From the IMG/VR virus record IMGVR_UViG_2541047851_000007: a stretch of 41,096 nucleotides of DNA; one strand, 5' to 3'. The notes below the pieces were generated by a model. The model was given only the letters and a program-made list of their open reading frames with translations. It was not told the origin of the DNA and did no database searches. Origin of the DNA: a virus. Taxonomy: Duplodnaviria; Heunggongvirae; Uroviricota; Caudoviricetes. Each line of letters opens with the position of its first letter. The first letter of the stretch is position 1. Shown piece after piece: positions 1-23,555 of the stretch. The position numbers and the translations under genes are program-made.

Positions 1-14
1 GGTTTGGGAGAAGG
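1..14. repeat. Right crossover half-site of invertible tail-fibre segment (partial; rest upstream of window)
   Basis: Positions 1-12 ggtttgggagaa match the reverse complement of 1827-1838 at 11/12. Confidence 0.5.
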
Positions 15-456
15 TGCTCCAGCTATTGGCGTTCCGTTCTTCTGGCCGTCCGCCGCAATGCCAAATTCTGTCATCGACAGCTGGTCCGGTATGGTGTTTT
101 TGAAGTTCAACGGGGCGAAATTTTCTGCCACTGATTACCCTGTGCTGGCGAAAGTGTTTCCTTCGCTGGTATTACCTGAAGCCCGCGGTGATTTCATTCG
201 TATCTGGGATGACGGGCGAGGTGCAGATGGTGGTCGCGAATTATTAAGCTGGCAGGAAGCTACAAACTTTTCTCAGTTTGCCGGGAATATAGGCGGAGGT
301 GCGGGACACGCAATTGACTTTCATGATGGCATCGCCGGAAATCAGCCAGGATTTTCACGATTTAATTTCACCAGTAACTCTGTGGGTGATGGTGTGAATT
401 TTGTTGCTGTCAGACCGCGAAATATTGCATTTAACTTTCTGGTGAGGGCTAAATAA
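4..456 (+). CDS. Alternative tail-fibre C-terminal segment (S'v-like), no own start; expressed only after inversion
   Basis: Frame open to window start; begins GLGEGAPAIG, the same GLGE encoded at the crossover site of the minus-strand fibre gene; tail-fibre-like C-terminus ...RPRNIAFNFLVRAK. Confidence 0.6.
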   Translation: MGEGAPAIGVPFFWPSAAMPNSVIDSWSGMVFLKFNGAKFSATDYPVLAKVFPSLVLPEARGDFIRIWDDGRGADGGRELLSWQEATNFSQFAGNIGGGAGHAIDFHDGIAGNQPGFSRFNFTSNSVGDGVNFVAVRPRNIAFNFLVRAK

Positions 457-1049
457 TGAAACCTGTTTTTGATGAAAATGGGCTGGCTACAGTGCCGGGC
501 GATATGCGTTGTTTTTATTATGATGCTGAAACAACTGAGTATACGGGCTGGTCTGATGAATATATTAATACTGGCGTAAGTATGCCCGCCTGTTCCACTG
601 GTATTGACCCGGGCGAAAACATTCCGGGAAAAGTGGCAGTATTTACGGGTAAGGGATGGAGCCATGAAGAAGACCATCGCAATGAGACTGTTTACTCAAC
701 AGAAAATGGTGCAGCTGTTACAGTGGATTATATCGGTGCCATCAAAGACGGTTATGTCACGCTTTCACCGTTAACGCCATACGATAAATGGGATGGTGAG
801 AAATGGGTGACGGATACCGAGGCACAGCATAGCGCCGCAGTAGGCGCGGCAGAAGCACAGCGCCAGTCGCTGATTGATGCAGCAATGGCTTCCATTAGTC
901 TGATTCAGCTGAAATTACAGGCCGGGCGGAAACTGACGCAGGCAGAAACAACCCGGCTTAACGCTGTGCTGGATTACATTGACGCGGTGACGGCAACAGA
1001 TACCAGCACCGCGCCGGATGTCATCTGGCCTGAACTGACGGAGGCGTAG
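456..1049 (+). CDS. Tail fibre assembly protein (partner of alternative fibre segment)
   Basis: 197 aa; Tfa-like C-terminus (LNAVLDYIDAV...APDVIWPE); start overlaps stop of upstream fibre segment. Confidence 0.7.
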   Translation: MKPVFDENGLATVPGDMRCFYYDAETTEYTGWSDEYINTGVSMPACSTGIDPGENIPGKVAVFTGKGWSHEEDHRNETVYSTENGAAVTVDYIGAIKDGYVTLSPLTPYDKWDGEKWVTDTEAQHSAAVGAAEAQRQSLIDAAMASISLIQLKLQAGRKLTQAETTRLNAVLDYIDAVTATDTSTAPDVIWPELTEA

Positions 1050-1461
1050 GCCATTCAATATCTGGCGCACTGGAAGTATCGACCATTTCCAGTGCGTCCA
1101 GGTAATCCAGCCACAAATTATATTGCGCCAGTTCCTCACCTTTCAGACGACCAATAGCCGCTTTACCAGGCCATTGTTTACTGTTCATATAATCGTTGGC
1201 CTGATTAATCAATTGCTGCTTTTCCAGTTCGGCTGCAGCAATCTGTTCCTCATGCGTTGGTGGTGGAATTTCAGACCATGCAGGAAAACCATTTTCTCCA
1301 GCGATACGGATTTTTCCTTCCGGCGGTAATCCGGAAAACTCAATATACACTTGCTCATCAACTTCAACAGCATCATCTGGCCATGAGTCAGCTTGCGTGT
1401 AATCCTCTTTCATCTCCAAGGGATAGAAAGAGTTTGTAGTCGCGGAATATATGTAATTCAT
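1021..1461 (-). CDS. Tail fibre assembly protein (partner of currently expressed fibre)
   Basis: 146 aa; C-terminus NLWLDYLDALEMVDTSSAPDIEWP is paralogous to the plus-strand Tfa; the two genes converge and overlap. Confidence 0.7.
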   Translation of the reverse strand: MNYIYSATTNSFYPLEMKEDYTQADSWPDDAVEVDEQVYIEFSGLPPEGKIRIAGENGFPAWSEIPPPTHEEQIAAAELEKQQLINQANDYMNSKQWPGKAAIGRLKGEELAQYNLWLDYLDALEMVDTSSAPDIEWPTPPSVQAR

Positions 1462-1487
1462 TTTTCACTCCATAAAGTTAAAAGAAA

Positions 1488-2195
1488 TTAACACCCTAAT
1501 GCGAAAAATGAAGCACCGATACCGGGTACGCCTGCTCTGGAAATAAATTTCACCGGGTCCTGGTTATAACCGGCACAAGCTATATAGCCAACATTTGCAC
1601 TGCCGGGAGTGTAATCCTGAGTCGCAAATACCCGCAGACATCTGTTCGGAAATGCAATCGGAAAATAGGTTACTGTGTCCTGAGACGTCAGCGGAACATC
1701 AATTGGCCCCCATTGAATAATTAAACCGGATGGCAATTTTTGATATCCAGGAACTGAAGCAGAAAGCATAAAACTACCCATATCAGGTATCTGATTCGTC
1801 CCTGTCCCCACATTCCTTTTTGCCGCCTCTCCCAAACCAAGGTTTTCGAGAGCCGTTTTCACCGTGCCATCCGATTTGATATCGCCAAACGGATTCTTGC
1901 GGCTCAGGTATTCAACAGCAAACCCCGATCCCAGCAATTCAACAAAACCGGGCAGATCACCATTATCAAGCACATCCCGTTGCGTTTTGTCACTTACAAA
2001 CTGGGCCAGAGCTGCAGCAATAAAGCTGGCCTGCCGAATAACCTTATTGACTTGCGCACTGGATGCTTTCCCTGCTGTAAATCCGGATAAAAGCGCAGGC
2101 AACGCTTCCCATTCCTCCTGCGACATAACATTGGCATTTTTACCCGTTGCGAATGCTTTAAAGTCATTTTTTGCCATCAGAGTAATACTCCCCAT
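1488..2195 (-). CDS. Tail fibre protein (constant N-terminus + variable C-terminus in current orientation)
   Basis: 235 aa; residues about 117-123 (ENLGLGE) are encoded by the crossover site; sits after baseplate genes. Confidence 0.65.
1827..1852. repeat. Hin/Gin/Pin-type recombination (crossover) site inside tail-fibre gene
   Basis: ctctcccaaacc-aa-ggttttcgagag: imperfect 12-bp inverted halves around a central AA; core AAACCAAGGTTTT as in hix/gix sites (recalled from memory). Confidence 0.6.
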
Positions 2196-2857
2196 GCCCC
2201 TACATCAAAACCACTGATGAATTCGTTATCCATATCAAAACCAAAAAATTTTGAACCTTCCGATGGGGTTTCCACCGAAGGTGTTTCAATGCCACCCGCC
2301 CACACCCCGGCGGCTTTTACTGTGAGATATCCCTGTTTAATTGCAGCAATTAACTCACGCGATACATCTGAAATATCAGTATCAGGAAAGACCCAGACCG
2401 ATATCGTCATGTCCTGGTTATCGACTATCTGCATTCGCAGCCCGGATCCTGCTGTTGCCGCGTCAAGAATTACCGGAAGCGAATCATTCCGTCCGTCCCA
2501 GTTATTAATCGCAATCTTCGCTTTAAGGATGACACGATAAGTTTCATCGCTGAGGTACATGTATCCGGAATCAGGATCGTATGGCCCCTGCCATACACCC
2601 TGATCATATCCAAGCCCGTCGGTATCCCAGCTGAAATAGACACCTGAGATAGGCTGGCTGACAACACGGCTACGTCCGATCCACAATCCAAGAATGTCAA
2701 GTTGCACACCAACCGCGGAGTCAATATCAAATGCAGTAATCAACCCTCTGGTGGCCGCCGCAACATCAATAAGCGGCCGGGTCATCAGATCAACATGCGC
2801 AAGAAATTTAGGTTTGGTGGCGTGGTAGTTCGTGATTAGTTCGGTGTATTTGCTCAT
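2177..2857 (-). CDS. Baseplate/tail-fibre-proximal protein (YmfQ / Mu gp48-like)
   Basis: 226 aa; position between J-like baseplate gene and fibre; family assignment from memory. Confidence 0.5.
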
Positions 2858-4053
2858 GACTCCACCGTTATAACGATATTTTCCGGGGTACAGGACGCAG
2901 ATTCGTTGTATCTGATATCAATGTTTGATGACGACAAAGCCCCCGGGGATTTCCCAATCGTCAGTTCCTGAATATCGTAATAGCGTGCATTCCCGCCACT
3001 CACCACGCCAAGATTCGCCGGTGAGTAAATGCGACTTAAAAGGACCGAATCACCAATCATCAGACTATTGATATAGTCGGAAATAGCCTGCTGGATCTGC
3101 TGCCCTATCTGTGAGGTATAACCCGTAAAAACTTTTAATTTAATCCGGGCATAAACAGGCACATCACTGGAACGCGAGAATTTGATTACATGGGGATTGC
3201 CGTATTTATCCGGAACCGTAACGGATGTTGTACCGTGAGTGGCTGTCCCCTGGCCTTTATTTCCTCTGATAGCCTGAGCAATATCCGTCACATCACCGCC
3301 ATCCACAATTACAGCAACAGAGTGTGGCGGTAACCCGTTACCGTCCTCTGAACCAGTATCGTTTTCATAGAGTTTGTGGCGGGTTACACCGGTAACATTA
3401 GAAACAGCACCATCCAGTGCTTCAAATGGGGTTATTGATGGCAACGCAACACTTTGCGACTGACGGATACGTAACTCCGCATCAGTTTCTGCCGGAGTGC
3501 CTACAGTAGCTGCAGCAGGATTGGTTACCGAAACCCAGCCACGGGTTGGCGTATTAATTTCAGTGATAGTTCCAGCCAGCGCCGCCACTGCACCACTGAC
3601 GGAACATGTTGCGGTCGCCATCACTGTACCATCCACGCCGACCACCACTGAAGCAGGCAAACGCCATATCACATTATTACCATCTTTCACGCTGCCATTA
3701 ATGATGGTTGTTCCGGCAGTTCCTGTAAGAAGCAAATCAACCGTAGAGTTCGTCGCGCCTTTACGTGAAATACCATTTATTTTCACGTTACTGGTCAGTG
3801 CAGCCCCATAGCCGGTTGCCGGTGAAAAACAGTTGTAGACAGTTATCGCAGTATTATTGGCATCATGAATCGCCAGCGCCATCAGAGCCACCATCTGGCC
3901 GTCTTTGCTGTCCGGTTCGAGGTAGGCATCACTGCCATAAATCTGCTGAAAATAGCTAATCAGGGTGCTGAGTATCGTCTGATAATCAGGCGCACTGATC
4001 CCCTCCGCGGTTACCTTTGCAGATAAACCGAGAGAATCAAGGTTCAGAGCCAT
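2854..4053 (-). CDS. Baseplate J-like protein
   Basis: 399 aa; size and position in baseplate cluster. Confidence 0.6.
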   Translation of the reverse strand: MALNLDSLGLSAKVTAEGISAPDYQTILSTLISYFQQIYGSDAYLEPDSKDGQMVALMALAIHDANNTAITVYNCFSPATGYGAALTSNVKINGISRKGATNSTVDLLLTGTAGTTIINGSVKDGNNVIWRLPASVVVGVDGTVMATATCSVSGAVAALAGTITEINTPTRGWVSVTNPAAATVGTPAETDAELRIRQSQSVALPSITPFEALDGAVSNVTGVTRHKLYENDTGSEDGNGLPPHSVAVIVDGGDVTDIAQAIRGNKGQGTATHGTTSVTVPDKYGNPHVIKFSRSSDVPVYARIKLKVFTGYTSQIGQQIQQAISDYINSLMIGDSVLLSRIYSPANLGVVSGGNARYYDIQELTIGKSPGALSSSNIDIRYNESASCTPENIVITVES

Positions 4054-4406
4054 TACGCCTCCGATGTAACAGTCGTTATTCCATAAAGAGTGTCGATTTC
4101 AGCGGAAAACATGACACGTCGGGTCGTGGTATCCAGCGTCGTATTGAAAGAGAGGATTGATTTAACGCCCTGCGTTTCGAGGATGCGCTTACGGATCGCC
4201 AGGTTGTAGGTTTCCGGCTTCTGCTTACCGAGTACGGACTGGATCCACGGAGTCCCCTCGGTGGTGTCGAGAAACCATTGCCCATACCACAATTCGAATC
4301 GTGTTTTTACCGCCTGCGCCACGGCCTCCGGTGAGTTAATCAGCCAGGTGTCATCACCGCTGCCAAAGGTGTAATCGCCATCGGCGTCTTCACGTCTGTA
4401 TCGCAT
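4053..4406 (-). CDS. Baseplate wedge protein (gp25/W-like)
   Basis: 117 aa; between spike-like and J-like genes; coupled start/stop. Confidence 0.5.
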   Translation of the reverse strand: MRYRREDADGDYTFGSGDDTWLINSPEAVAQAVKTRFELWYGQWFLDTTEGTPWIQSVLGKQKPETYNLAIRKRILETQGVKSILSFNTTLDTTTRRVMFSAEIDTLYGITTVTSEA

Positions 4407-5158
4407 CAGTTTACCCCGTCGGTACTGCTTTCACCGCGCTGAACACCACCATGAGTGTGCGTATCATCGATTGGCTTGCCGTTAGCCTTCACGCCCCCCA
4501 AAAACTCAACAGCACCAGTGATTTTTGAAGCCACACCAGAAACCACAGACCCCACCATGCCCCCCATCCAGGTTAACAGGCCATGAATGGTTACTTTCTC
4601 AGAAAAATCAGCCAGGGGGGCAACCACATCAAGACCACCTGGAGCGACAATTTTAATTTTCCTGGTATCAGGATTAAGCTCAAAATAGGTGCTGCCGTCA
4701 TCACTACGCAACTGTGTGGCACTGGTATTAATACCGCTAATCTTCCTTGCCTGCGACTGGGGACCGACAATACAAAACGCATCCGATAAATCATGCATTC
4801 TGTCATCGACCGACTCCTGTATCCCGCCACTCTGCCACCAGAAATCAATACAACGATCGGCAAAAATCACCAAACATTCATCACCGGCTTTAACTGGGAA
4901 CGTTAGCGTACATCCTCCGCCGCGCGGGAATACCACTGGCACATCCACCAGCAATGGGTAATTTTTGGTAATGCGGTTGCCGTCATTATCCTTTTCAACC
5001 GAACGGATAGCAGGCTGCACAACTGCCGTCACCGCATCAGGATCGAATGACTGAATAATGCCAGGCAAGGCGACACGGATCTGGTTCTTTGTTGTTTCCC
5101 GTTCAGATTTGAATGTTTCGGCAAGGTCGCCGCTGCGGGTCTGGTCAGATACTGCCAT
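4406..5158 (-). CDS. Baseplate spike protein (gpV/Mu gp45-like)
   Basis: 250 aa; C-terminal Gly-rich tail with HTHGG motif typical of spike tips. Confidence 0.55.
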   Translation of the reverse strand: MAVSDQTRSGDLAETFKSERETTKNQIRVALPGIIQSFDPDAVTAVVQPAIRSVEKDNDGNRITKNYPLLVDVPVVFPRGGGCTLTFPVKAGDECLVIFADRCIDFWWQSGGIQESVDDRMHDLSDAFCIVGPQSQARKISGINTSATQLRSDDGSTYFELNPDTRKIKIVAPGGLDVVAPLADFSEKVTIHGLLTWMGGMVGSVVSGVASKITGAVEFLGGVKANGKPIDDTHTHGGVQRGESSTDGVN

Positions 5159-5174
5159 TTAGTAGGCTCCAGAA

Positions 5175-5200
5175 AGCAAAAAACCCGCCGAAGCGGGTTT
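5175..5200 (-). terminator. Intrinsic terminator downstream of HEPN cassette
   Basis: Minus strand AAACCCGC-UUCG-GCGGGUUU followed by UUUUGCUUUCU. Confidence 0.6.
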
Positions 5201-5217
5201 GATAACGTTAATTTTAT

Positions 5218-5613
5218 TCATGAAACTCTAGCAGACTTTAGCTGTTCCCAGCGCTCAAAATAGAGTTCAGCAGCCTCGATTGCATCCTGTCCCATCTCTT
5301 TCGAAACAGTCACATTCGTCAGATCATAGTCAGCTTCATTTCTAGCATCCCGCCACTGGCGAAGTACGAAAGCTAGGGATTTCAGTGTATTTGTCGGGTA
5401 TGGCTCTGATTTGCACTCTGAGGGCGTTGACATATAACCCACAGTATTTTTGTGATGCTCATGGGTAAAATGCGGTATGGCAGTAAGTGAGCTAATAGAC
5501 TCATGTAACATACTGTAATACGCCCTTGAGATAGCGCTTCGAAATCCACTCTCAATATTTTCAGACAGACATAATCGAGCGGTATCGAGAATCTGATTGC
5601 TAGTTACCGACAT
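5218..5613 (-). CDS. HEPN-domain protein (moron, second gene of cassette)
   Basis: 131 aa; N-terminal SRAYYSMLHES and C-terminal WRDARNEADYD...AIEAAELYFE resemble canonical HEPN helices; AT-rich; RBS GGGGTGAG. Confidence 0.55.
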   Translation of the reverse strand: MSVTSNQILDTARLCLSENIESGFRSAISRAYYSMLHESISSLTAIPHFTHEHHKNTVGYMSTPSECKSEPYPTNTLKSLAFVLRQWRDARNEADYDLTNVTVSKEMGQDAIEAAELYFERWEQLKSARVS

Positions 5614-6373
5614 GGTAGCTCACCCCCGTATGCAACTGACGCGGAGAGGTAAATCTAGCTAACAGGGAACAATCATCCAGTTTAGATTCAGCGCAGACTC
5701 TATCAGCCAAGTCGAAGTTCATTTTGGCAATAGTTTTAGGCTCAAGATTTTTAATATCAACAACATAGCAACCGCTTCCACTAAGCTGAACGAAACCTGT
5801 CGTAGCCTTGTATTCACTTAGCAAGCCCCAGATTATGGATGCTAAGGTCTGGAACTGTTCCTTCGAGCACTGTGTGGCGCTATAGAAATTATCCATTTCT
5901 GCAAGGAGTTCTTCTTTGTGCTTCATAGCATTACTCCTGCCTTCTGATTCAGAAAGAAGCTTAATGTGCTCTTCCATATAAAATTTTAACTGTTCACGCT
6001 CGCCGCAACGGTACGCCCAACTGTATGCGTTGTGACTAAAGAGTTTTGTCCGATACTTCTTTGCCAGCGGGACATAGACATCCTTGAGTTCATTATAGCT
6101 AAATGTATTAATTAAAATGTGATGATAGTGCATTGCCAACGTTACATCGTTTACTTCTAGGCTTATCCTGAGATAACGTAACGCGCTTTCAATCTTTCCG
6201 GTTATTGCATCCAGATAAGATAGTGCAATGTTGGTAGCAGGCGTTGGAGAGACAGAAAGTTCCTCTCGAATTTTCTTTTCAGTGAAGGGATCTAAACTTT
6301 CCCTATCCAATAGAAGCGCATTGAATTGTTCAATATATTTTTGCGCTTTTTCTAATGGGATGCCTGCCGCCAT
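5600..6373 (-). CDS. Hypothetical all-alpha protein (moron, first gene of cassette)
   Basis: 257 aa; overlaps the HEPN gene by 14 bp; AT-rich; no recognisable motif. Confidence 0.55.
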   Translation of the reverse strand: MAAGIPLEKAQKYIEQFNALLLDRESLDPFTEKKIREELSVSPTPATNIALSYLDAITGKIESALRYLRISLEVNDVTLAMHYHHILINTFSYNELKDVYVPLAKKYRTKLFSHNAYSWAYRCGEREQLKFYMEEHIKLLSESEGRSNAMKHKEELLAEMDNFYSATQCSKEQFQTLASIIWGLLSEYKATTGFVQLSGSGCYVVDIKNLEPKTIAKMNFDLADRVCAESKLDDCSLLARFTSPRQLHTGVSYHVGN

Positions 6374-6468
6374 GGATTATTTCTCTTACTAAAGGGATTG
6401 TGATTGTGAACTTTGAACAATATCTCGTCAACCTTAAAGCGCTCATCTCGGAAGATTGACATCAAACT
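6374..6468 (-). promoter_or_regulatory. Candidate promoter of HEPN cassette
   Basis: Minus strand TTGACG - 17 bp - CACAAT, then RBS-like AAGAG before the ATG. Confidence 0.3.
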
Positions 6469-6801
6469 TTAGCGTAACGCCTTTTTACACGGGAAAGATC
6501 CAATGATTTTCGGCGCGTCCATGCTGTTCTGCAGCAGCTGGACGTTCAGGAAAGCTTTTCCGTTACGTTTCACAAACTCAAAGCCGTAATTGTTACCATC
6601 ACGGGAAGGCATCAGGCCCATGTCCATTTTCATGTTTGAATAGTCACCATCTTTTCCCAGAAATTTTATCTTCTGTGATGTGACAGTTTCACCGTTAATA
6701 ACAGTCATTCCGTCACCGGTCATCGTGTAGTTGCCGCACTGAATTGCAGCCATCGCCGGAGCAGTAACCATCATAACTAACGCCAAACATAACCGTTTCA
6801 T
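6469..6801 (-). CDS. Small exported protein (signal peptide), unknown function
   Basis: 110 aa; N-terminal MKRLCLALVMMVTAPAMA-AI signal-peptide-like; two Cys; start overlaps stop of upstream baseplate gene. Confidence 0.5.
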   Translation of the reverse strand: MKRLCLALVMMVTAPAMAAIQCGNYTMTGDGMTVINGETVTSQKIKFLGKDGDYSNMKMDMGLMPSRDGNNYGFEFVKRNGKAFLNVQLLQNSMDAPKIIGSFPCKKALR

Positions 6802-7865
6802 TAAAGCACTCTTTCCCTCGCTGATGAGGAAACAAGATCCGCCGCGCCACGCGCTTCACACATCATATCCATGTACCACGCCTGGCCCCTTGTGTCGCCA
6901 GTGTACATAATCCCGCGCACAATATAAACGCCATCCGTTGCGATGCTGGCAGGCTGCGATGTGGTGCCGCTGAGCGTGATATTTCCGTCCGTGTTCTGGT
7001 CGGTGATCTGACCACCAGCCATCGCAATATCGTTGTTCGACAACGCGGTACGATAGACGGAAGCCTGATCCAGCTGAATGAGCCCGTTAACCCGGATGTT
7101 CGGATTAATAAGCGCGCGGACGTTTACGCCGTTACCGATAGTCTGCTGCGGCATTCCAATAAGCCCGGTAGCGCTGTTGAGCACAATCGCTTCGTGAACA
7201 TATTCGTTATTCGCCACCATCTGGCGCTGACCGTCCACGAATTGCCATGTTGCGCCACATTGTCCGGCTACGTTATCCATTAGATGCCGCGTCATGCCAA
7301 AGAGTACCCGCCCCCGAGGGAATACAGTAGCAGGCATTTCAGGCGTCAGGCCTTCTGTCGCGCCTTTGGCTTCGAAGTCTTTCATCAGCGCACGGTTCAC
7401 ATCAGCGACCGTGTAACCGGCAGCCAGCGTCTGTGAGGTTATACTGGTAGCAAAAGCCAGATCAGTATCTGCTGCCTGAATCAGGACGTAGGTATCAACC
7501 GGACTGTCTTTTCCTGTGACCGAGTAGCGAATTTCACCGCTGAAAATCAGTCCGTAGTTGCGGCCATCTCTCTGGCCCACGTCCGCCGCGTCAACTTCCC
7601 GCACGGTCCCTACGTCGCTTGCTGACACCTCCGGCGCGATACCGTCGTAACCGGCAATCAGACGCACTTTCGAAAACTCCTGCCCGGTAATTCGGTTCAC
7701 AGTATCTGCCGAGAGGTTATAAATTTTGATAGTCCCTACCCGGGACGCGCTGCTGATGTTGAACCAGTCGATCGTAAAGGTGACTTTGAAATCACTTAGC
7801 TCAATTCCCTGACCGTTCCCGTCCACAAGCTGCAGCTCGAAATGTCTCATCCAGTTCTGTGACAT
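6801..7865 (-). CDS. Baseplate hub-like protein (Mu gp44-like)
   Basis: 354 aa; position between tape-measure-proximal genes and spike. Confidence 0.45.
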   Translation of the reverse strand: MSQNWMRHFELQLVDGNGQGIELSDFKVTFTIDWFNISSASRVGTIKIYNLSADTVNRITGQEFSKVRLIAGYDGIAPEVSASDVGTVREVDAADVGQRDGRNYGLIFSGEIRYSVTGKDSPVDTYVLIQAADTDLAFATSITSQTLAAGYTVADVNRALMKDFEAKGATEGLTPEMPATVFPRGRVLFGMTRHLMDNVAGQCGATWQFVDGQRQMVANNEYVHEAIVLNSATGLIGMPQQTIGNGVNVRALINPNIRVNGLIQLDQASVYRTALSNNDIAMAGGQITDQNTDGNITLSGTTSQPASIATDGVYIVRGIMYTGDTRGQAWYMDMMCEARGAADLVSSSARERVL

Positions 7866-7867
7866 GC

Positions 7868-8170
7868 TTACTCCGTTGATACCAGTAAATGGCTGCGACC
7901 GCCCAGGTCAGTTTTTGTGGGGTAATCCTGTGTGTTGTCATCACAGACCACCACCAGCTTAAAACCAAGCCCCATACAGGCGTACTGCGCCAGCAGGTCA
8001 GCACCAGTGACGAGAGGAATACCGGAGATTACCGGCTCCCCTCTGTCGTTCTGCAGGTCCATAATCCAGTACAGATCGCGCCATATGATGCTAATCCGCC
8101 AGGTGACACCACCCAGGACGATGCTGAACTGCTGGTTGTCCGCTGTCAGCGGAATTTCCTGAATTGTCAT
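7868..8170 (-). CDS. Tail/baseplate-associated hypothetical protein
   Basis: 100 aa; coupled within tail operon. Confidence 0.4.
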   Translation of the reverse strand: MTIQEIPLTADNQQFSIVLGGVTWRISIIWRDLYWIMDLQNDRGEPVISGIPLVTGADLLAQYACMGLGFKLVVVCDDNTQDYPTKTDLGGRSHLLVSTE

Positions 8171-8757
8171 TAGCCGCCCCCCAGTAATGACGCCACGTTA
8201 CCCGTGATGCTTTTCAGCAGTGAAGTATCTGGAGGCTTTGTGGTTTTGTTGCCGCTGTTCTGTACCGCCGACGTGCTGGCCCCTTCCTTCATGTTGGTTT
8301 TATCCGCGACGGTAATCTGCTGTGTCCGGGAGATAATGACCTCCCTCAGGGTGAGGACAGCGGACAGGACGTTTTCGGTTGTCTTGTCCGTCGTCACTTC
8401 CAGCGCCCGGATCAACATGTTGCTGTACAGCCGTTTACCGGTTACCACATCGAAGGGGATACGGCTTTCCTGCAGACCCAGTAGCTCCTGATACGTCTGC
8501 TGAGGACTCAGGCCGAGCAGGCTGGTAGCCGTCAGGTTACTGGCAAAATCCAGCAATGCGCCGCCACCGGCGAAACCAACCTCCATCACCACTTCTGACG
8601 GTTTTTTATAGGCATGATCAGCGACAGCGGCCCCGACCTCTACCGGATGCTCTGTTATTTCAAGCATATCTGTATGCTTCTCTGAAATAACAACACTGGG
8701 AACAATCATTCCTATTTTTCTGCTCTGCTGATGAAAAAGTGTAGAGAGAATATCCAC
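8170..8757 (-). CDS. Tail/baseplate-associated hypothetical protein
   Basis: 195 aa; immediately downstream of tape measure gene. Confidence 0.4.
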   Translation of the reverse strand: MDILSTLFHQQSRKIGMIVPSVVISEKHTDMLEITEHPVEVGAAVADHAYKKPSEVVMEVGFAGGGALLDFASNLTATSLLGLSPQQTYQELLGLQESRIPFDVVTGKRLYSNMLIRALEVTTDKTTENVLSAVLTLREVIISRTQQITVADKTNMKEGASTSAVQNSGNKTTKPPDTSLLKSITGNVASLLGGG

Positions 8758-10763
8758 TAACCCACCCTCACCTGATTACTTCGCATGACCTGAGCATTTG
8801 CAGACTGTTGCCGACGTGCAACCTCATTACCGACAGCGTGCGGATCTCCGCCACCGTAAATGTGGTAGGTATTTTGCTGGTTAACCTCTGTCACTTTGCC
8901 ACTAATTCCCGCCACGGCAGCCTTATTAATCAGCTCTCGAGAATAGATATTTCTTCCATTCTCATGCTGGATAATGCTGCTCATCAATGCTGACATGGTT
9001 TGCGGATCACTCATATTCAGGGCAGCCCGGGGATCCACTCCCAGTCGTTGCGATACAGCCCTGATATACGCTGTTGTGTTGTTATTATCAGACGCAGGTG
9101 CCCAGGTAGAGATAATTTTCTCCACACTGTTTATTCCCCGTCCGGCGTACAGCATTAACTGACGAGCAAGAGCCCGTAATCCATCAAAGGCAGTTTCAAA
9201 TCTGGCAAATCGCCCGCCCGGGCGTTCAAGAGAAGCCCCTGCCTGACCAGCAAAATTAAGGTTTCCCGGATTGTTATTCCGTTCTCCTCGTTTCGTAGCC
9301 TGTGCATATTGTTCCGGCTCAGCACCTGGAATATCTGACTGAATATTTGCGCCTTTTACGGTATGAGGATTACGACCAAAATCGGTATCAATGCCAAGCC
9401 AGCGCAATGAATCTCCAATATTTTGTTTCGTGTAATCCCAGGATGACTTCGCACTGGCACCAATATTTTCGCGATCAGAGTACAAATACGCAGCATAAGC
9501 CATCCAGCCTTTTAACCACGGCGGGACCGGCAAACCTGATATTTTCCCGAAAGCCCCCAGAACCCTGGATACCCAGACACCCGCGATGAATGTACCAAGG
9601 ATTTCCAGTGCATTTTGCCAGCCGCCAACACCATCTTTTAGTTCCAGAAGGTGATCACGAAGCCAGGTGATCGCATCCTTCGCTTTATCTATTGCCGGTT
9701 GCCATTTTTCCCAGTCGATAAGACTGTTACCGCCTTCTTTCCATGTTTTGTAGTCTTCCCACAAGAGACCGAGAGCCACGATCAGACCGGTAATCAGCCC
9801 TATAGGTGACATCCAGAAAGTAGAGTTAAGTATCCGCATGGCGACAACCAGACCGCCGATAACCTCTATCAGGGTTTTCGTTTCGGCATCCAGTTTCCCC
9901 CACCACTCGATGATATCTCCGACACCATCGACTATCCGAAATGCTACCCGCCCGACTATCTCACCCAGCCAGAGGATCCCCTTTATGACCTTTGTGATGG
10001 TGACTTCAATTTTGGGAAAATTTTCAATTATCTTTTTGCGCAGGTTATCAATCTGCCCCGCCAGTCCGTCCGCAAGATTCGATCCGATTTTGTCCCGCGC
10101 CATCCTGGCCATTTCACCGAGCGATTTCAGCGAGGTCATAAACCGGTTTGACGATAAGGCAGCCTGATCGGCATTAAATCCGATCGCTTTCACCATTTCT
10201 GAATACTGAGCGCTGAACTGCCCCACTCCGCGACGCATAGCCATCAGGGTATTTTCGTCAATGCCCAGCATCTGCGCATACTGGTTAGCCCGGTAATACG
10301 GCATGCTGCTGAGTTTCTGTCCAACGCCCGTAAAGATAGCAGCCATGTCACGCATGTTACCGCTGGCATCACGGGTCTGTACGCCCAGGCGATTCAGAAA
10401 GCCTTCTGCTCCGGGATTGTTACGAATAAACCGGGAGAGGCTTTCCAGAGAAGATCGCGCAGCGTCCACACTGCCGCCAACCTGCGAAACCGCATAGCCA
10501 ATAGACTGAATTCCCTGGACCGTCGCGCCGGTGCGCTGTGACGCCCAGTAAAGATTATCCAGGCCGGAGGCGATCTTAGCCGTGAAGGCCACCACGGACA
10601 GCGCAGCCCCTTCAACAGCCAGCCCCATTTTGATGACATTTGCAGTTGTACCGGCGAGGACAGAACCGAACTTTTTCGCTCCTGCATCATCCACACTGAA
10701 GCCAAGCGAGACGAGGAAATCTTTAATAGTTTCAGCGTTCATTATCCTCTCTCCATTTCTCAA
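8757..10763 (-). CDS. Tail tape measure protein
   Basis: 668 aa; helical with hydrophobic central segments; position after tail chaperone. Confidence 0.8.
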   Translation of the reverse strand: MRNGERIMNAETIKDFLVSLGFSVDDAGAKKFGSVLAGTTANVIKMGLAVEGAALSVVAFTAKIASGLDNLYWASQRTGATVQGIQSIGYAVSQVGGSVDAARSSLESLSRFIRNNPGAEGFLNRLGVQTRDASGNMRDMAAIFTGVGQKLSSMPYYRANQYAQMLGIDENTLMAMRRGVGQFSAQYSEMVKAIGFNADQAALSSNRFMTSLKSLGEMARMARDKIGSNLADGLAGQIDNLRKKIIENFPKIEVTITKVIKGILWLGEIVGRVAFRIVDGVGDIIEWWGKLDAETKTLIEVIGGLVVAMRILNSTFWMSPIGLITGLIVALGLLWEDYKTWKEGGNSLIDWEKWQPAIDKAKDAITWLRDHLLELKDGVGGWQNALEILGTFIAGVWVSRVLGAFGKISGLPVPPWLKGWMAYAAYLYSDRENIGASAKSSWDYTKQNIGDSLRWLGIDTDFGRNPHTVKGANIQSDIPGAEPEQYAQATKRGERNNNPGNLNFAGQAGASLERPGGRFARFETAFDGLRALARQLMLYAGRGINSVEKIISTWAPASDNNNTTAYIRAVSQRLGVDPRAALNMSDPQTMSALMSSIIQHENGRNIYSRELINKAAVAGISGKVTEVNQQNTYHIYGGGDPHAVGNEVARRQQSANAQVMRSNQVRVG

Positions 10764-22124: not shown

Positions 22125-22649
22125 TTACCGGGACTGTTCTATTTGTCGGACACCAGCCAACTGGTTATTCGCCTTCTCGATGGCCGCCAACAGTGGGTTA
22201 ATCCACAGAACAGCCTGGCAATATGTCAACGTTCTGGTGGTAGTGGCACGATCACCGGCTGAGTCAATGTCCCCGGAATCGGCGTGCAATGCGCTGGCGC
22301 GTAAACGGTTCGCGTAGTTGAGCAACCCGACAGCAATATCAACAGGAACAGGGAAATCACAGTTCTTTTCACGGAGCAGAACCTCACGGTATTTGATGAC
22401 TGTCTTCTCGTGACCGATGTCGACCAGAGAATTTAATCGGCTTGCGTTTTCTGCTATCTGGTTAAAACGATTGAAGTTTAATGCCTGATTAGCTATCACT
22501 TTCCCTTGATATTCAGCTTCACCTTCCGCTTTATCAGCCCGCAACTTTTCTGCCTGATACTTGCTGTGGTAATGGTTTGCAGACCAGACGAGCGCCCCAA
22601 AGGCAGAGAAGAAAAATGCCGCGATGACAATCTTATAAGTCAGCTTCAT
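22125..22649 (-). CDS. Rz-like i-spanin
   Basis: 174 aa; N-terminal TM helix then VWSANHYHSKY, resembling lambda Rz SWAVNHY; overlaps endolysin 3' end. Confidence 0.6.
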   Translation of the reverse strand: MKLTYKIVIAAFFFSAFGALVWSANHYHSKYQAEKLRADKAEGEAEYQGKVIANQALNFNRFNQIAENASRLNSLVDIGHEKTVIKYREVLLREKNCDFPVPVDIAVGLLNYANRLRASALHADSGDIDSAGDRATTTRTLTYCQAVLWINPLLAAIEKANNQLAGVRQIEQSR

Positions 22650-23109
22650 TTACCACCCCACCAGCATCTTTAAACCTGGAAATCAGGTCACCGATTTTAT
22701 GTTCATACTGACCGTAACCTGCACCAGGTAACGACGCCCAGATATTGCTGCAACGGTCGATTGCCTGACGAATATCGCCACGGTCAATCATCGGTAAAGC
22801 GCCACGCTCTTTAATCTGCTGCAGCGCCACAGCGTCCTGACTTTCTGGCGAAAAATCTTTCAGGCCAAGCTGCTTACAGTAGGCATCCCACCAGCGTGAA
22901 AGAAGCTGATACCGTCCTGCGGCTGTTGATTTAAGCTTCGGGTTTAGCGTGACAAGTTTGCGAGGGTGATCGGAGTAATCAGTGAACAACTCACCTCCGA
23001 CAATAACGTCATAACCGTGATTACGTGTCGGTTGTCGCCCGTTATCCGTTCCTTCTGACCATGCCACCATATCCAGGAAAGCTTTACGTTGGGAATTTAG
23101 TGTCTGCAT
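22633..23109 (-). CDS. Endolysin, lambda R-type lytic transglycosylase
   Basis: 158 aa; near-identical over long stretches to lambda R as recalled (NQRKAFLDM.AWSEGTDNGRQ.TRNHGYDVIVGGELFTDYSDHPRKLVTLNPKLKST). Confidence 0.9.
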   Translation of the reverse strand: MQTLNSQRKAFLDMVAWSEGTDNGRQPTRNHGYDVIVGGELFTDYSDHPRKLVTLNPKLKSTAAGRYQLLSRWWDAYCKQLGLKDFSPESQDAVALQQIKERGALPMIDRGDIRQAIDRCSNIWASLPGAGYGQYEHKIGDLISRFKDAGGVVNEADL

Positions 23110-23112
23110 GAA

Positions 23113-23454
23113 TTACTCCTTAGAGCCACCAAACTTGTTACCGATTACTCGCATTGCAGCCCCACGAATAGCATCGACACCGATCAGCCCAACACCACCA
23201 CCAATGGCAACAGAAAGCGATTTAGGCCATCCAACATACTCAAGAGCGGATGCAAAGGTCAGCGTCAGAGCACCACAGAGCAAAATCTCAAGCGTTTTTC
23301 GTTTCCAGCCGCCGCCACCGCCAAAATAGGCAATGCGCAAACCAGCCATAACAATTGACATAACCACTGCGCCCAACGGCGTATCTCCACGCCACCAACT
23401 TTGTAAGAGTTCCAGTAAGTCAGGCCAGGAATGAGGAGCATTGTGCATTTTCAT
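23113..23454 (-). CDS. Holin, lambda S-like (dual-start MKM)
   Basis: Start MKMHNAPHSWPDLL parallels lambda S MKMPEKHDLL; GGAGG Shine-Dalgarno lies inside the annotated N-terminal extension. Confidence 0.7.
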   Translation of the reverse strand: MKMHNAPHSWPDLLELLQSWWRGDTPLGAVVMSIVMAGLRIAYFGGGGGWKRKTLEILLCGALTLTFASALEYVGWPKSLSVAIGGGVGLIGVDAIRGAAMRVIGNKFGGSKE

Positions 23455-23555
23455 ACTTCCCACCTCCGCCATTACGGGGTGTTGTTGAAAGGCGGGCCCT
23501 GCGTATACGCCCGTAGGATTGGGTTATGAGCCGTCCTTCGGTGGGCCCTGAATAC

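What the first reader, a model, noticed from the sequence alone, without database searches (positions are those of the whole stretch)
6469..6801. Exported small protein encoded inside the baseplate operon
The 110-aa protein has a typical cleavable signal peptide (MKRLCLALVMMVTAPAMA-AI) and two cysteines. Tail and baseplate proteins are not Sec-exported, so a periplasmic product is unexpected here; it may be a lysogenic-conversion or superinfection-exclusion factor expressed with the adjacent cassette.
Basis: partly seen in the sequence, partly recalled or inferred. Interest (0 to 1): 0.45.

Follow-up and report, generated by a model that had tools for sequence, protein, structure and literature searches.

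The report
Exported accessory protein beside baseplate hub
A small protein made to be exported into the bacterial periplasm is encoded between the baseplate-hub and tail-spike genes of an E. coli prophage. It is a conserved gene of unknown function, not part of the neighbouring mobile cassette and not a tail part, and it most likely alters the cell envelope against phage entry.

Summary
The ORF is real: window 6469-6801, on the minus strand, 110 aa. It has a classical Sec signal peptide (MKRLCLALVMMVTAPAMA|AIQC) and two cysteines in the mature part that are almost invariant across the family.

It belongs to PHROG 3443, which PGAP names "STY1065/STY2022 family phage-derived protein". This is a narrow family, seen only in Enterobacterales, with no assigned function, no Pfam domain and no informative fold match.

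In about 125 related loci the gene always follows the hub gene directly. Its start overlaps the hub stop (TAATG or ATGA) in most loci where both could be placed. The spike gene follows 21 to 4114 nt later.

So the variable cargo slot lies after this gene. In the window that cargo is a separate two-gene HEPN-like cassette with promoter-like and terminator-like sites of its own.

Homologous tails in Providencia, Acinetobacter and Burkholderia phages lack the gene. Hafnia phage yong1 keeps only a 20-codon remnant. It is therefore accessory, not structural. One variant in the same slot is a lipoprotein fusion.

The mature protein is under strong purifying selection (dN/dS 0.04-0.16).

Export and accessory status are well supported. 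The function is inferred only: a periplasmic blocker of phage entry, as in T5 Llp or Cor "lytic conversion". Interest is moderate.

The parts
6469..6801 (-). ORF of the 110-aa exported protein (precursor), stop codon included
   Evidence: PHROG 3443 at E 2e-52. The identical protein WP_000824896.1 is named 'STY1065/STY2022 family phage-derived protein'.
6748..6801 (-). Signal peptide, codons 1-18 (MKRLCLALVMMVTAPAMA). Predicted SPase I cleavage is after AMA.
   Evidence: Sequence. Family-wide n/h/c statistics. Relaxed dN/dS of 0.53-0.63. AF2 models it as a lone N-terminal helix, residues 2-23.
6472..6747 (-). Mature domain, 92 aa, predicted all-beta (7 strands). Conserved Cys22 is at 6736-6738 and Cys105 at 6487-6489, a presumed disulfide.
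6799..6803 (-). TAATG: the hub stop codon overlaps the start codon of the exported protein by 1 nt
   Evidence: Among about 110 loci with both ends placed, the overlap is 1 nt in 66 and 4 nt (ATGA) in 27.
6809..6819 (-). Purine-rich Shine-Dalgarno-like stretch GAGGGAAAGAG, 8-18 nt before the ATG, inside the end of the hub gene
   Evidence: Read from the sequence
6801..7865 (-). Baseplate hub gene (354 aa) immediately upstream
   Evidence: phrog_196 baseplate hub at E 5e-89 and PF22759 E217_GP41 at E 3e-5
6403..6431 (-). Sigma-70-like site TTGACG-17-CACAAT in the 95-nt gap downstream of the exported-protein gene. It would drive the cargo cassette, not this gene.
   Evidence: The number of promoter-like sites in the region equals the chance expectation, so this is only suggestive.
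5218..6373 (-). Separate two-gene cargo cassette: 257 aa (5600-6373, phrog_17809) and 131 aa (5218-5613, phrog_5176, weakly HEPN-like)
   Evidence: Present in only some related loci. G+C is 0.42-0.44.
5181..5200 (-). Intrinsic-terminator-like hairpin AAACCCGC-TTCG-GCGGGTTT followed by a T run, closing the cargo cassette
4406..5158 (-). gp138-type membrane-puncturing spike gene, the right-hand border of the variable slot
   Evidence: PF18352 at E 4e-44 with the Apex motif. PGAP name.

Best explanation
SHOWN. The gene encodes a small precursor with a Sec signal peptide. Its mature 92-aa beta-rich domain keeps two cysteines, so it is built to work in the periplasm.

The gene is fixed at the hub/spike junction of one clade of temperate myoviruses of Enterobacterales. 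It is integrated into the late tail operon: its start overlaps the hub stop, and it has no promoter-like or terminator-like site of its own. It is dispensable for building this type of tail. It lies just upstream of a hotspot where unrelated cargo cassettes come and go.

INFERRED (my commitment). It is a 'lytic conversion' or superinfection-exclusion factor. It would be made together with tail proteins and exported by Sec. SPase I would cleave it after AMA18 and DsbA would oxidise it. It would then bind a conserved envelope component from the periplasmic side and close the entry route used by tails of this kind.

That would keep sibling or related phages from injecting into the producing cell. 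It would also protect progeny from wasteful ejection on envelope debris. T5 Llp and Cor do this at FhuA (general knowledge).

The target is more likely a conserved host component than a variable tail part. The confidence of 0.35 refers to this inferred mechanism. The shown part (exported, accessory, non-structural, separate from the cassette) I put at about 0.9.
For: Export
- Signal-peptide anatomy holds across the family, and selection is relaxed on that segment only.
- The two Cys of the mature part are almost invariant.
- A variant in the same hub-spike slot carries the domain behind a lipobox (LTGC) lipoprotein N-domain. That is a second, independent export signal.

Accessory, not structural
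- Homologous tail modules in Providencia PSTCR3 and Acinetobacter AbTJ go from hub straight to spike.
- Hafnia phage yong1 has a hub 77% identical but keeps only a 20-codon remnant.
- Burkholderia Magia and Elizabethkingia EKP1 carry unrelated small signal-peptide proteins in the same slot.

Operon integration
- The start overlaps the hub stop in 93 loci, and lies within +1 to +5 nt in about 10 more, out of about 110 with both ends placed.
- No promoter-like site lies upstream.
- GC3 is close to that of the tail genes.

Conserved target
- The mature C-terminal half averages 90% identity to the window. That is higher than the hub (80-85%), the TMP C-terminal part (65%) and the spike C-terminal half (57%).
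- dN/dS is 0.04-0.09 in that half.
- A free-standing chromosomal homolog sits between yciY and yciI in a housekeeping neighbourhood.

Precedent, from general knowledge and not tested here: exclusion genes are often linked to entry machinery, for example llp beside the T5 receptor-binding gene, cor beside tail-fibre genes and HK97 gp15 inside the tail operon.
Against: - No experiment, no expression data and no literature bear on this family.
- The gene has no detectable promoter of its own, so protection of a lysogen is not explained.
- A purely late-expressed exclusion factor has a less obvious benefit for a temperate phage.
- There is no covariation with any tail protein beyond linkage to its neighbours. 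Pairwise dN/dS shows no diversifying selection, so there is no arms-race signature.
- The window protein is not a lipoprotein (residue -1 before Cys22 is Gln), unlike Llp and Cor.
Confidence: 0.35

Rival explanations
1. Spackle-like self-immunity. The periplasmic protein binds and inhibits the muralytic domain carried at the C-terminus of the tape measure protein of incoming phages of the same kind. This would block cell-wall penetration, as T4 Spackle (gp61.3) does with the gp5 tail lysozyme.
For: The tape measure protein (8757-10763) carries a C-terminal domain homologous to a solved endolysin (7q47_A, E 9e-14) and to the N-terminus of Gp29 (9vvp_L, E 1e-20). Relatives are annotated as SLT or lytic transglycosylase proteins. 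So a periplasm-acting tail lysin exists for such an inhibitor to target. The size, the export signal and the genetic linkage to the penetration machinery all fit.
Confidence: 0.12
2. Lysogenic-conversion or host-fitness factor. It would be expressed from the prophage in the lysogen and would change an envelope property that benefits the bacterium, such as stress or serum resistance or adhesion, like lambda Bor and Lom. It would not be directed at phages.
For: Exported small proteins in tail regions of temperate phages are the classic morons (general knowledge). The gene is widespread in clinical Enterobacterales prophages, and related DNA occurs in 318 of 5426 complete E. coli genomes. A chromosomal orphan copy exists. 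Synonymous diversity is reduced in the last ~45 codons of the hub gene, which could hide a regulatory element.
Against: No promoter-like site lies upstream and no terminator-like site follows. The start overlaps the hub stop. The dip in synonymous diversity coincides with an allele-exchange breakpoint and with an invariant amino-acid motif, which explain it as well. The gene is fixed across the clade, not patchy as morons usually are.
Confidence: 0.2
3. Late helper of lysis or release. A periplasmic protein made at the time of tail assembly would modulate cell-wall or outer-membrane breakdown or lysis timing.
For: Late-operon placement and periplasmic location. Other late phage proteins act in the periplasm, such as spanins and T4 RI (general knowledge).
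Against: A complete canonical lysis cassette lies elsewhere in the window. It comprises a holin (23113-23472), a 158-aa ORF read by eye as a lambda-R-like endolysin (22633-23109, no Pfam match), Rz (22125-22649) and embedded Rz1 with a lipobox (22226-22387). Related phages do without the gene. There is no similarity to known lysis proteins.
Confidence: 0.08
4. A virion or assembly component. The hydrophobic N-terminus would be a membrane anchor or membrane-insertion segment of a tail-tip protein, not a cleaved signal peptide.
For: The position between hub and spike and the overlap with the hub gene. Conservation is comparable to that of structural genes.
Against: It is absent from homologous tails and reduced to a remnant in an isolated phage. 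A small-x-small cleavage motif lies at a fixed distance from the first Cys, and selection is relaxed on the N-terminal segment. The Cys pair is conserved. A lipoprotein variant occupies the same slot. A chromosomal orphan copy lies outside any prophage.
Confidence: 0.05

Closest known systems
PHROG 3443 / PGAP 'STY1065/STY2022 family phage-derived protein'
   Same: This is the family the protein belongs to (E 2e-52). The identical protein WP_000824896.1 carries the PGAP name.
   Different: The family has no assigned function, no Pfam domain and no literature. The export signal, the fixed position after the hub and the accessory status are worked out here.
Bacteriophage T5 Llp (lytic conversion lipoprotein)
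   Same: A small exported protein with a disulfide, encoded next to the phage's host-entry machinery. It acts from the periplasmic side during the lytic cycle to shut the phage's own entry route and protect progeny (general knowledge). This is the closest functional model for a gene expressed in the lytic programme.
   Different: Llp is an outer-membrane lipoprotein made early. The window protein has an SPase I site, not a lipobox, and sits in a late operon. No sequence or fold similarity was detected. Its target is unknown.
Cor (phi80, N15, HK022, mEp167) exclusion lipoprotein
   Same: A small exported exclusion protein of temperate coliphages, encoded at the edge of the tail gene cluster (general knowledge).
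   Different: Cor is a lipoprotein that acts on FhuA and is expressed in lysogens. No homology was detected, and no promoter of its own was found here.
T4 Spackle (gp61.3)
   Same: A small Sec-exported periplasmic protein that blocks superinfection. The phage here also carries a tail-borne lysin domain that could be a target.
   Different: Spackle is helical, made early and not linked to tail genes (general knowledge). There is no similarity by sequence or fold and no covariation with the lysin-bearing part of the TMP.
HK97 gp15 moron (superinfection exclusion inside the tail operon)
   Same: An accessory envelope protein inserted among tail genes of a temperate coliphage that blocks DNA entry of the same phage type (general knowledge).
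   Different: gp15 is an inner-membrane protein and a classical moron with its own promoter. The gene here is translationally coupled to the hub gene, is soluble and periplasmic by prediction, and is fixed across a clade.
Lambda Bor and Lom (classical morons)
   Same: Exported proteins encoded within or beside late genes of a temperate phage (general knowledge).
   Different: They are self-contained transcription units expressed in lysogens and serve the host. That matches the neighbouring 5218-6373 cassette better than it matches this gene.

Membership tests
PHROG 3443 / STY1065-STY2022 family | Significant full-length sequence match to the family profile | tested here: met
   E 2.3e-52, residues 3-107 against profile positions 6-112 of 115. 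The identical protein carries the PGAP family name. NCBIfam release 20 HMMs gave no hit, so the name probably comes from another rule type.
Sec/SPase I secretory protein | Positively charged n-region, hydrophobic h-region of 8 or more residues, small-x-small c-region | tested here: met
   MKR / LCLALVMMV / AMA|A. The same holds in 150 of 151 family members. SignalP itself was not available.
Sec/SPase I secretory protein | Actual export and cleavage | not testable with these tools
   Needs PhoA or Bla fusions, or N-terminal mass spectrometry.
Bacterial lipoprotein (Llp/Cor-type exclusion proteins) | Lipobox [LVI][ASTVI][GAS]C at the end of the signal peptide | tested here: not met
   The window protein has A-I-Q-C, with Gln at -1. 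Fusion variants P0196, P0135 and P0156 do have LTGC, LSGC and LVSC lipoboxes.
Bacterial lipoprotein (Llp/Cor-type exclusion proteins) | Sequence or fold similarity to Llp or Cor; blocking of FhuA | tested here: not met
Classical moron (own promoter and terminator, different composition, patchy among relatives) | Own promoter upstream and terminator downstream | tested here: not met
   The start overlaps the hub stop. No promoter-like site was found upstream, and no terminator-like site lies between the stop codon and the next gene.
Classical moron (own promoter and terminator, different composition, patchy among relatives) | Base composition different from flanking genes | tested here: inconclusive
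   G+C is 0.45 against 0.54 for the hub, but GC3 is 0.54 against 0.61. The true cargo has GC3 of 0.40-0.43.
Classical moron (own promoter and terminator, different composition, patchy among relatives) | Present or absent among otherwise homologous phages | tested here: met
   Absent from PSTCR3, AbTJ, Magia and EKP1, and a remnant in yong1. But it is fixed within the clade that carries it.
Baseplate structural component | Present in all homologous baseplates, cytoplasmic, found in virions | tested here: not met
   Missing from homologous modules, and it carries an export signal. No virion proteomics was found; the SEN34 paper holds none of the proteomics terms searched.
T4 Spackle / periplasmic lysozyme inhibitors (Ivy, PliC/MliC, PliG) | Sequence or fold membership | tested here: not met
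T4 Spackle / periplasmic lysozyme inhibitors (Ivy, PliC/MliC, PliG) | Inhibition of a tail-associated muralytic enzyme | not testable with these tools
   A candidate target exists, the TMP C-terminal endolysin-like domain. There is no covariation with it.
Known anti-phage defence systems (PADLOC) | Match to a defence-protein model | tested here: not met
   No hit at E up to 1 for this protein or for the two cargo proteins.

The most novel reading that the evidence does not exclude
The protein founds a new class of phage 'lytic conversion' factor. It would be a soluble periplasmic protein made stoichiometrically with tail parts that disables a conserved, Enterobacterales-specific envelope component needed for genome delivery by contractile tails with gp138-type spikes. 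Finding its target would reveal a so far unknown periplasmic or inner-membrane host factor for myovirus DNA entry. The hub-spike junction would then be a dedicated locus for envelope-directed exclusion genes, which would explain why unrelated small exported proteins recur there in distant phages.
Probability: 0.15. Interest if true: 0.65.

Novelty: new variant of a known kind. Interest (0 to 1): 0.4.

Why it matters
Little is known about how contractile-tailed phages cross the periplasm and inner membrane, or how resident phages block that step.

This family offers a good handle on the question. It is conserved and strongly constrained, and it is periplasmic by prediction. It is genetically tied to the hub and spike, and related DNA occurs in about 6% of complete E. 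coli genomes. The obvious experiments are to express it, look for exclusion and pull down its target.

The analysis also maps a cargo hotspot between this gene and the spike gene. About 116 loci hold many unrelated gene sets there, including HEPN-like pairs and other exported proteins. That is useful for finding defence and exclusion genes.

If the protein has no phenotype, it remains an ordinary uncharacterised prophage accessory gene.

Tried and rejected
- Pfam, NCBIfam and PADLOC scans of the protein gave nothing.
- The afdb50 library was not available.
- A profile of the family against PDB sequences gave only chance-level MurD hits at E 0.7.
- I looked for a partner by covariation with every neighbouring tail protein segment. 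Only linkage to the adjacent hub C-terminal half and spike N-terminal half appeared.
- I looked for an embedded promoter in the hub 3' end. Synonymous diversity does dip there, but the alignment shows no conserved -35/-10 pair. The dip coincides with an invariant peptide motif and an allele-exchange breakpoint.
- I did not attempt co-folding with candidate partners, because the structure tool returns no interface measures.
- Pairwise dN/dS gave no sign of diversifying selection.
- Literature searches for the locus tags, the accession and the related phages found no functional or proteomic data.
- The search for related loci with the divergent alignment A2 failed for lack of a conserved stretch. 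The closer alignment A1 worked.

Full report
**1. The observation**

The ORF is at window 6469-6801, on the minus strand. It starts with ATG and encodes 110 aa.

The N-terminus MKRLCLALVMMVTAPAMA|AIQC has the charged, hydrophobic and small-x-small parts of an SPase I signal peptide. SignalP was not available, so I tested the signal by comparison.

Among 151 full-length relatives:
- 150 have a small-x-small motif. In about 135 it lies exactly three residues before the first conserved cysteine.
- 145 have a net positive n-region.
- The most hydrophobic 9-residue stretch has a median Kyte-Doolittle mean of 2.83.
- 147 have exactly two cysteines in the mature part.

The signal segment diverges freely (dN/dS 0.53-0.63). 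The mature part is strongly constrained (0.08-0.16 in the N-terminal third, 0.04-0.09 in the rest).

This is the signature of a cleaved signal peptide in front of a functional domain. It also shows that the ORF is a real gene. The precursor has three cysteines, of which two (C22, C105) are in the mature protein and are invariant in alignments A1 and A2.

**2. What family it is**

The protein matches PHROG 3443 (unknown function) at E 2e-52. The identical RefSeq protein WP_000824896.1 is named "STY1065/STY2022 family phage-derived protein" by PGAP.

It has no Pfam, NCBIfam-HMM or PADLOC match.

The family is narrow:
- 410-425 clusters at 90% identity among 5.8 billion proteins.
- Only 65 representatives at E of 0.001 or better among 1.84 billion.
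- Every named source is in the Enterobacterales: Escherichia, Klebsiella, Salmonella, Yersinia, Photorhabdus, Serratia, Pantoea, Edwardsiella and Mixta. One genome-collection locus (L007) is labelled Chryseobacterium sp., which looks like a mislabel or contaminant.

I found no paper on the family or on its locus tags, and no virion proteomics for related phages.

**3. Surroundings**

The minus strand carries a tail module:

| Gene | Coordinates |
|---|---|
| Tape measure protein (TMP) | 8757-10763 |
| Dit-like protein | 8170-8757 |
| Pam3-gp18-type plug | 7868-8170 |
| Hub | 6801-7865 |
| The exported protein | 6469-6801 |
| 257-aa gene | 5600-6373 |
| 131-aa gene | 5218-5613 |
| gp138-type spike | 4406-5158 |
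| Sheath initiator | 4053-4406 |
| Baseplate J | 2854-4053 |
| DUF2612 wedge protein | 2177-2857 |
| Fibre | 1488-2195 |

The start codon of the exported protein shares one base with the hub stop codon (TAATG). A purine-rich stretch lies 8-18 nt upstream.

The 95-nt gap after the gene holds a sigma-70-like site (TTGACG-17-CACAAT, 6431-6403). A strong terminator-like hairpin (5200-5181) follows the 131-aa gene. The 257/131-aa pair therefore looks like a self-contained moron. The exported-protein gene lies outside it, upstream of its promoter-like site. The count of promoter-like sites in the region equals the chance expectation, so the promoter call is only suggestive.

G+C content:

| Gene | G+C | GC3 |
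|---|---|---|
| Hub | 0.54 | 0.61 |
| Exported protein | 0.45 | 0.54 |
| Cargo genes | 0.42-0.44 | 0.40-0.43 |

**4. Comparative anatomy**

I fetched 42 loci from species genomes and 80 from IMG/VR, plus phage and plasmid records. I located all the tail genes in them by tblastn.

The homolog always follows the hub gene. Among the roughly 110 loci where both ends could be placed:
- the start overlaps the hub stop by 1 nt in 66;
- it overlaps by 4 nt (ATGA) in 27;
- it lies within 1-5 nt in about 10.

The spike gene follows 21 to 4114 nt after the stop. Ten loci have no cargo at all, with hub, exported protein and spike back to back (L036, L038, L039, L041, L042, L043, L048, L049, L108, L109).

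The basic arrangement is therefore hub, exported protein, spike. The variable slot lies between the exported-protein gene and the spike gene.

A survey of that slot in 116 loci found 179 ORF clusters. A HEPN-like gene related to the window's 131-aa gene occurs in 31 loci with different partner genes. At least three cargo clusters have signal peptides of their own.

The same order holds in relatives whose homolog is only 37% identical, such as Klebsiella phages ST405-OXA48phi1.2 and ST340-VIM1phi10.1, and in a Rahnella megaplasmid prophage.

**5. Accessory, not structural**

Tails with homologous hub, plug, Dit, spike, sheath initiator and J genes exist without it (profile search):
- Providencia phage PSTCR3 and Acinetobacter phage AbTJ go straight from hub to spike.
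- Burkholderia phage Magia has a reverse-strand 123-aa gene there.
- Elizabethkingia phage EKP1 has a 107-aa gene there. Both of these are unrelated in sequence, but both have signal peptides and two cysteines.
- Hafnia phage yong1 has a hub 77% identical to the window's. It has other genes in the slot and keeps only a 20-codon remnant of the C-terminus.

In one phage (L134) the slot holds a 303-aa lipoprotein. It has an LTGC lipobox and a helical N-domain of about 200 aa. Its C-terminal domain is 67% identical to the window protein. This is a second kind of export signal on the same domain.

A diverged free-standing copy sits between yciY and yciI, in the opp-cls-trp housekeeping region of a Mixta-like genome.

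Together these results argue against a virion or assembly role and for an extracytoplasmic accessory role.

**6. Evolutionary behaviour**

Alleles 60-70% identical to the window's occur in phages whose hub is 96-98% identical. In L119-L122 the hub is 94-98% identical and the homolog 70%.

The exchange breakpoint lies about 40 nt before the hub stop. It sits just after an invariant block that encodes TGDTRGQAWYMDMMCEARG. The same block shows reduced synonymous diversity. I read this as a recombination anchor plus a conserved peptide, not as a promoter, because no conserved -35/-10 pair is visible.

Pairwise identity of the exported protein co-varies only with its neighbours, the hub C-terminal half and the spike N-terminal half. 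When hub C-terminal identity is 90% or more, no covariation remains with the TMP, the spike C-terminal half, the sheath initiator or J.

The mature C-terminal half is the most conserved segment of the whole region. It averages 90% identity to the window, against 80-85% for the hub, 65% for the TMP C-terminal part and 57% for the spike C-terminal half. This points to a conserved target, more likely a host envelope component than a variable tail part.

**7. How it most likely works**

*Shown by sequence and comparison:* it is an exported, probably disulfide-bonded periplasmic protein. It is placed so as to be co-transcribed and co-translated with late tail genes. It is dispensable for the tail and separate from the neighbouring cassette.

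*Inferred:* it is a lytic-conversion or exclusion factor that acts on a conserved envelope component from the periplasmic side. It would stop tails of this type from delivering DNA into the producing cell. It might also protect progeny from ejecting on debris. The model is T5 Llp and Cor (general knowledge). I give this about 0.35.

*Rivals:*
- A host-fitness conversion factor expressed in lysogens (0.2). The lack of any promoter signal weakens it.
- A Spackle-like inhibitor of the tail-borne lysin (0.12). The TMP C-terminus is indeed homologous to a solved endolysin (7q47_A, E 9e-14) and to Gp29 (9vvp_L). But there is no covariation and no similarity to known inhibitors.
- A lysis helper (0.08). 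The window already has a holin, an endolysin-like gene, Rz and embedded Rz1 at 22125-23472.
- A structural part (0.05).

The remaining probability is for functions I cannot name.

**8. Comparison with what is known, and novelty**

The protein is a member of a catalogued but uncharacterised family (PHROG 3443).

By function it resembles the exported accessory proteins that temperate and virulent coliphages encode beside their entry machinery: Llp, Cor, HK97 gp15, Spackle, and Bor and Lom. It fails the membership tests for each of them:
- no lipobox;
- no promoter or terminator of its own;
- no sequence or fold similarity.

It differs from a classical moron in being fused into the operon and fixed across a clade. 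I therefore rate it a new variant of a known kind. Interest is moderate at 0.4. It is a clean and testable candidate, but no result so far would surprise a specialist.

Noticed in passing
window 5181-6431 (minus strand): A self-contained two-gene cassette of 257 aa and 131 aa. It has a sigma-70-like site of its own (6431-6403) and a strong terminator-like hairpin (5200-5181). The 131-aa protein is weakly HEPN-like (PDB 9xbd_A, E 0.002). Relatives of it occur in 31 of 116 related loci, paired with several different upstream genes. This looks like a toxin-antitoxin or abortive-infection type moron. It has no PADLOC or Pfam match.
   Followed up: partly
Between the exported-protein gene and the spike gene in loci L001-L136 (window 5159-6468): This junction is a cargo hotspot. 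The distance from the stop codon to the spike gene ranges from 21 to 4114 nt, with 179 ORF clusters in 116 loci. They include at least three other families with signal peptides, a 411-aa protein and genes on the reverse strand. Distant phages (Burkholderia Magia, Elizabethkingia EKP1) also carry unrelated small exported proteins between hub and spike.
   Followed up: partly
window 6860-6935 (3' end of the hub gene): Synonymous diversity falls to 0.14-0.22, against 0.3-0.5 elsewhere in the hub gene. The dip lies over an invariant block encoding TGDTRGQAWYMDMMCEARG. Alleles of the downstream gene switch about 40 nt before the hub stop, just after this block. It is probably a recombination anchor, but a hidden regulatory element is not excluded.
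   Followed up: partly
window 8757-9350 (C-terminal ~200 aa of the tape measure protein): The tape measure protein ends in a domain homologous to a solved endolysin (7q47_A, E 9e-14) and to the N-terminus of Gp29 (9vvp_L, E 1e-20), so it is a tail-borne muralytic domain. Pfam does not detect it. In the identical RefSeq locus, PGAP annotates this gene as two pseudogene fragments, although the ORF is intact in the window.
   Followed up: partly
L134 7001-7912 (Logan SRR16693535 contig); also proteins P0135 and P0156: A lipoprotein fusion variant. It has a lipobox, a conserved helical N-domain of about 200 aa with its own Cys pair and an AAYHEYG motif, and then the family domain. In L134 it sits in the same hub-spike slot. 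The genomic context of P0135 and P0156 was not seen. The N-domain has no Pfam or PHROG match and no hit in the phage collection.
   Followed up: partly
L128 7001-7357 (ENA ERZ27284868 contig, Mixta-like): A diverged free-standing homolog (P0145, 118 aa, with a signal peptide). It lies between yciY and yciI, in the opp-cls-trp housekeeping region, with no prophage genes nearby.
   Followed up: partly
L129 4523-4582 (Hafnia phage yong1): A 20-codon remnant of the C-terminus of the exported protein (80% identical). It sits just after an unrelated 136-aa gene and shows that the gene was lost in an isolated phage.
   Followed up: yes
window 1-2195: Convergent tail-fibre and tail-fibre-assembly genes: 4-456 and 456-1049 on the plus strand, 1021-1461 and 1488-2195 on the minus strand. 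They are bracketed by a 19-nt inverted repeat (424-442 and 1470-1488, 84% complementary). This resembles an invertible host-range segment. No invertase gene was looked for, and the left end runs off the window.
   Followed up: partly
window 22125-23472: A complete lysis cassette: holin (23113-23472, Phage_holin_3_1), a 158-aa ORF read by eye as a lambda-R-like endolysin with no Pfam match (22633-23109), Rz (22125-22649) and an embedded Rz1 lipoprotein ORF (22226-22387, lipobox LSGC).
   Followed up: partly
L007 (CACSKA010000001.1): A genome labelled Chryseobacterium sp. 18061 carries a locus whose hub is 93% identical and whose exported protein is 88% identical to the window's. Elizabethkingia phage EKP1 likewise has a tail module 48-81% identical to these enterobacterial ones. 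Both suggest a mislabelled or contaminated record, or an unexpected host range.
   Followed up: no
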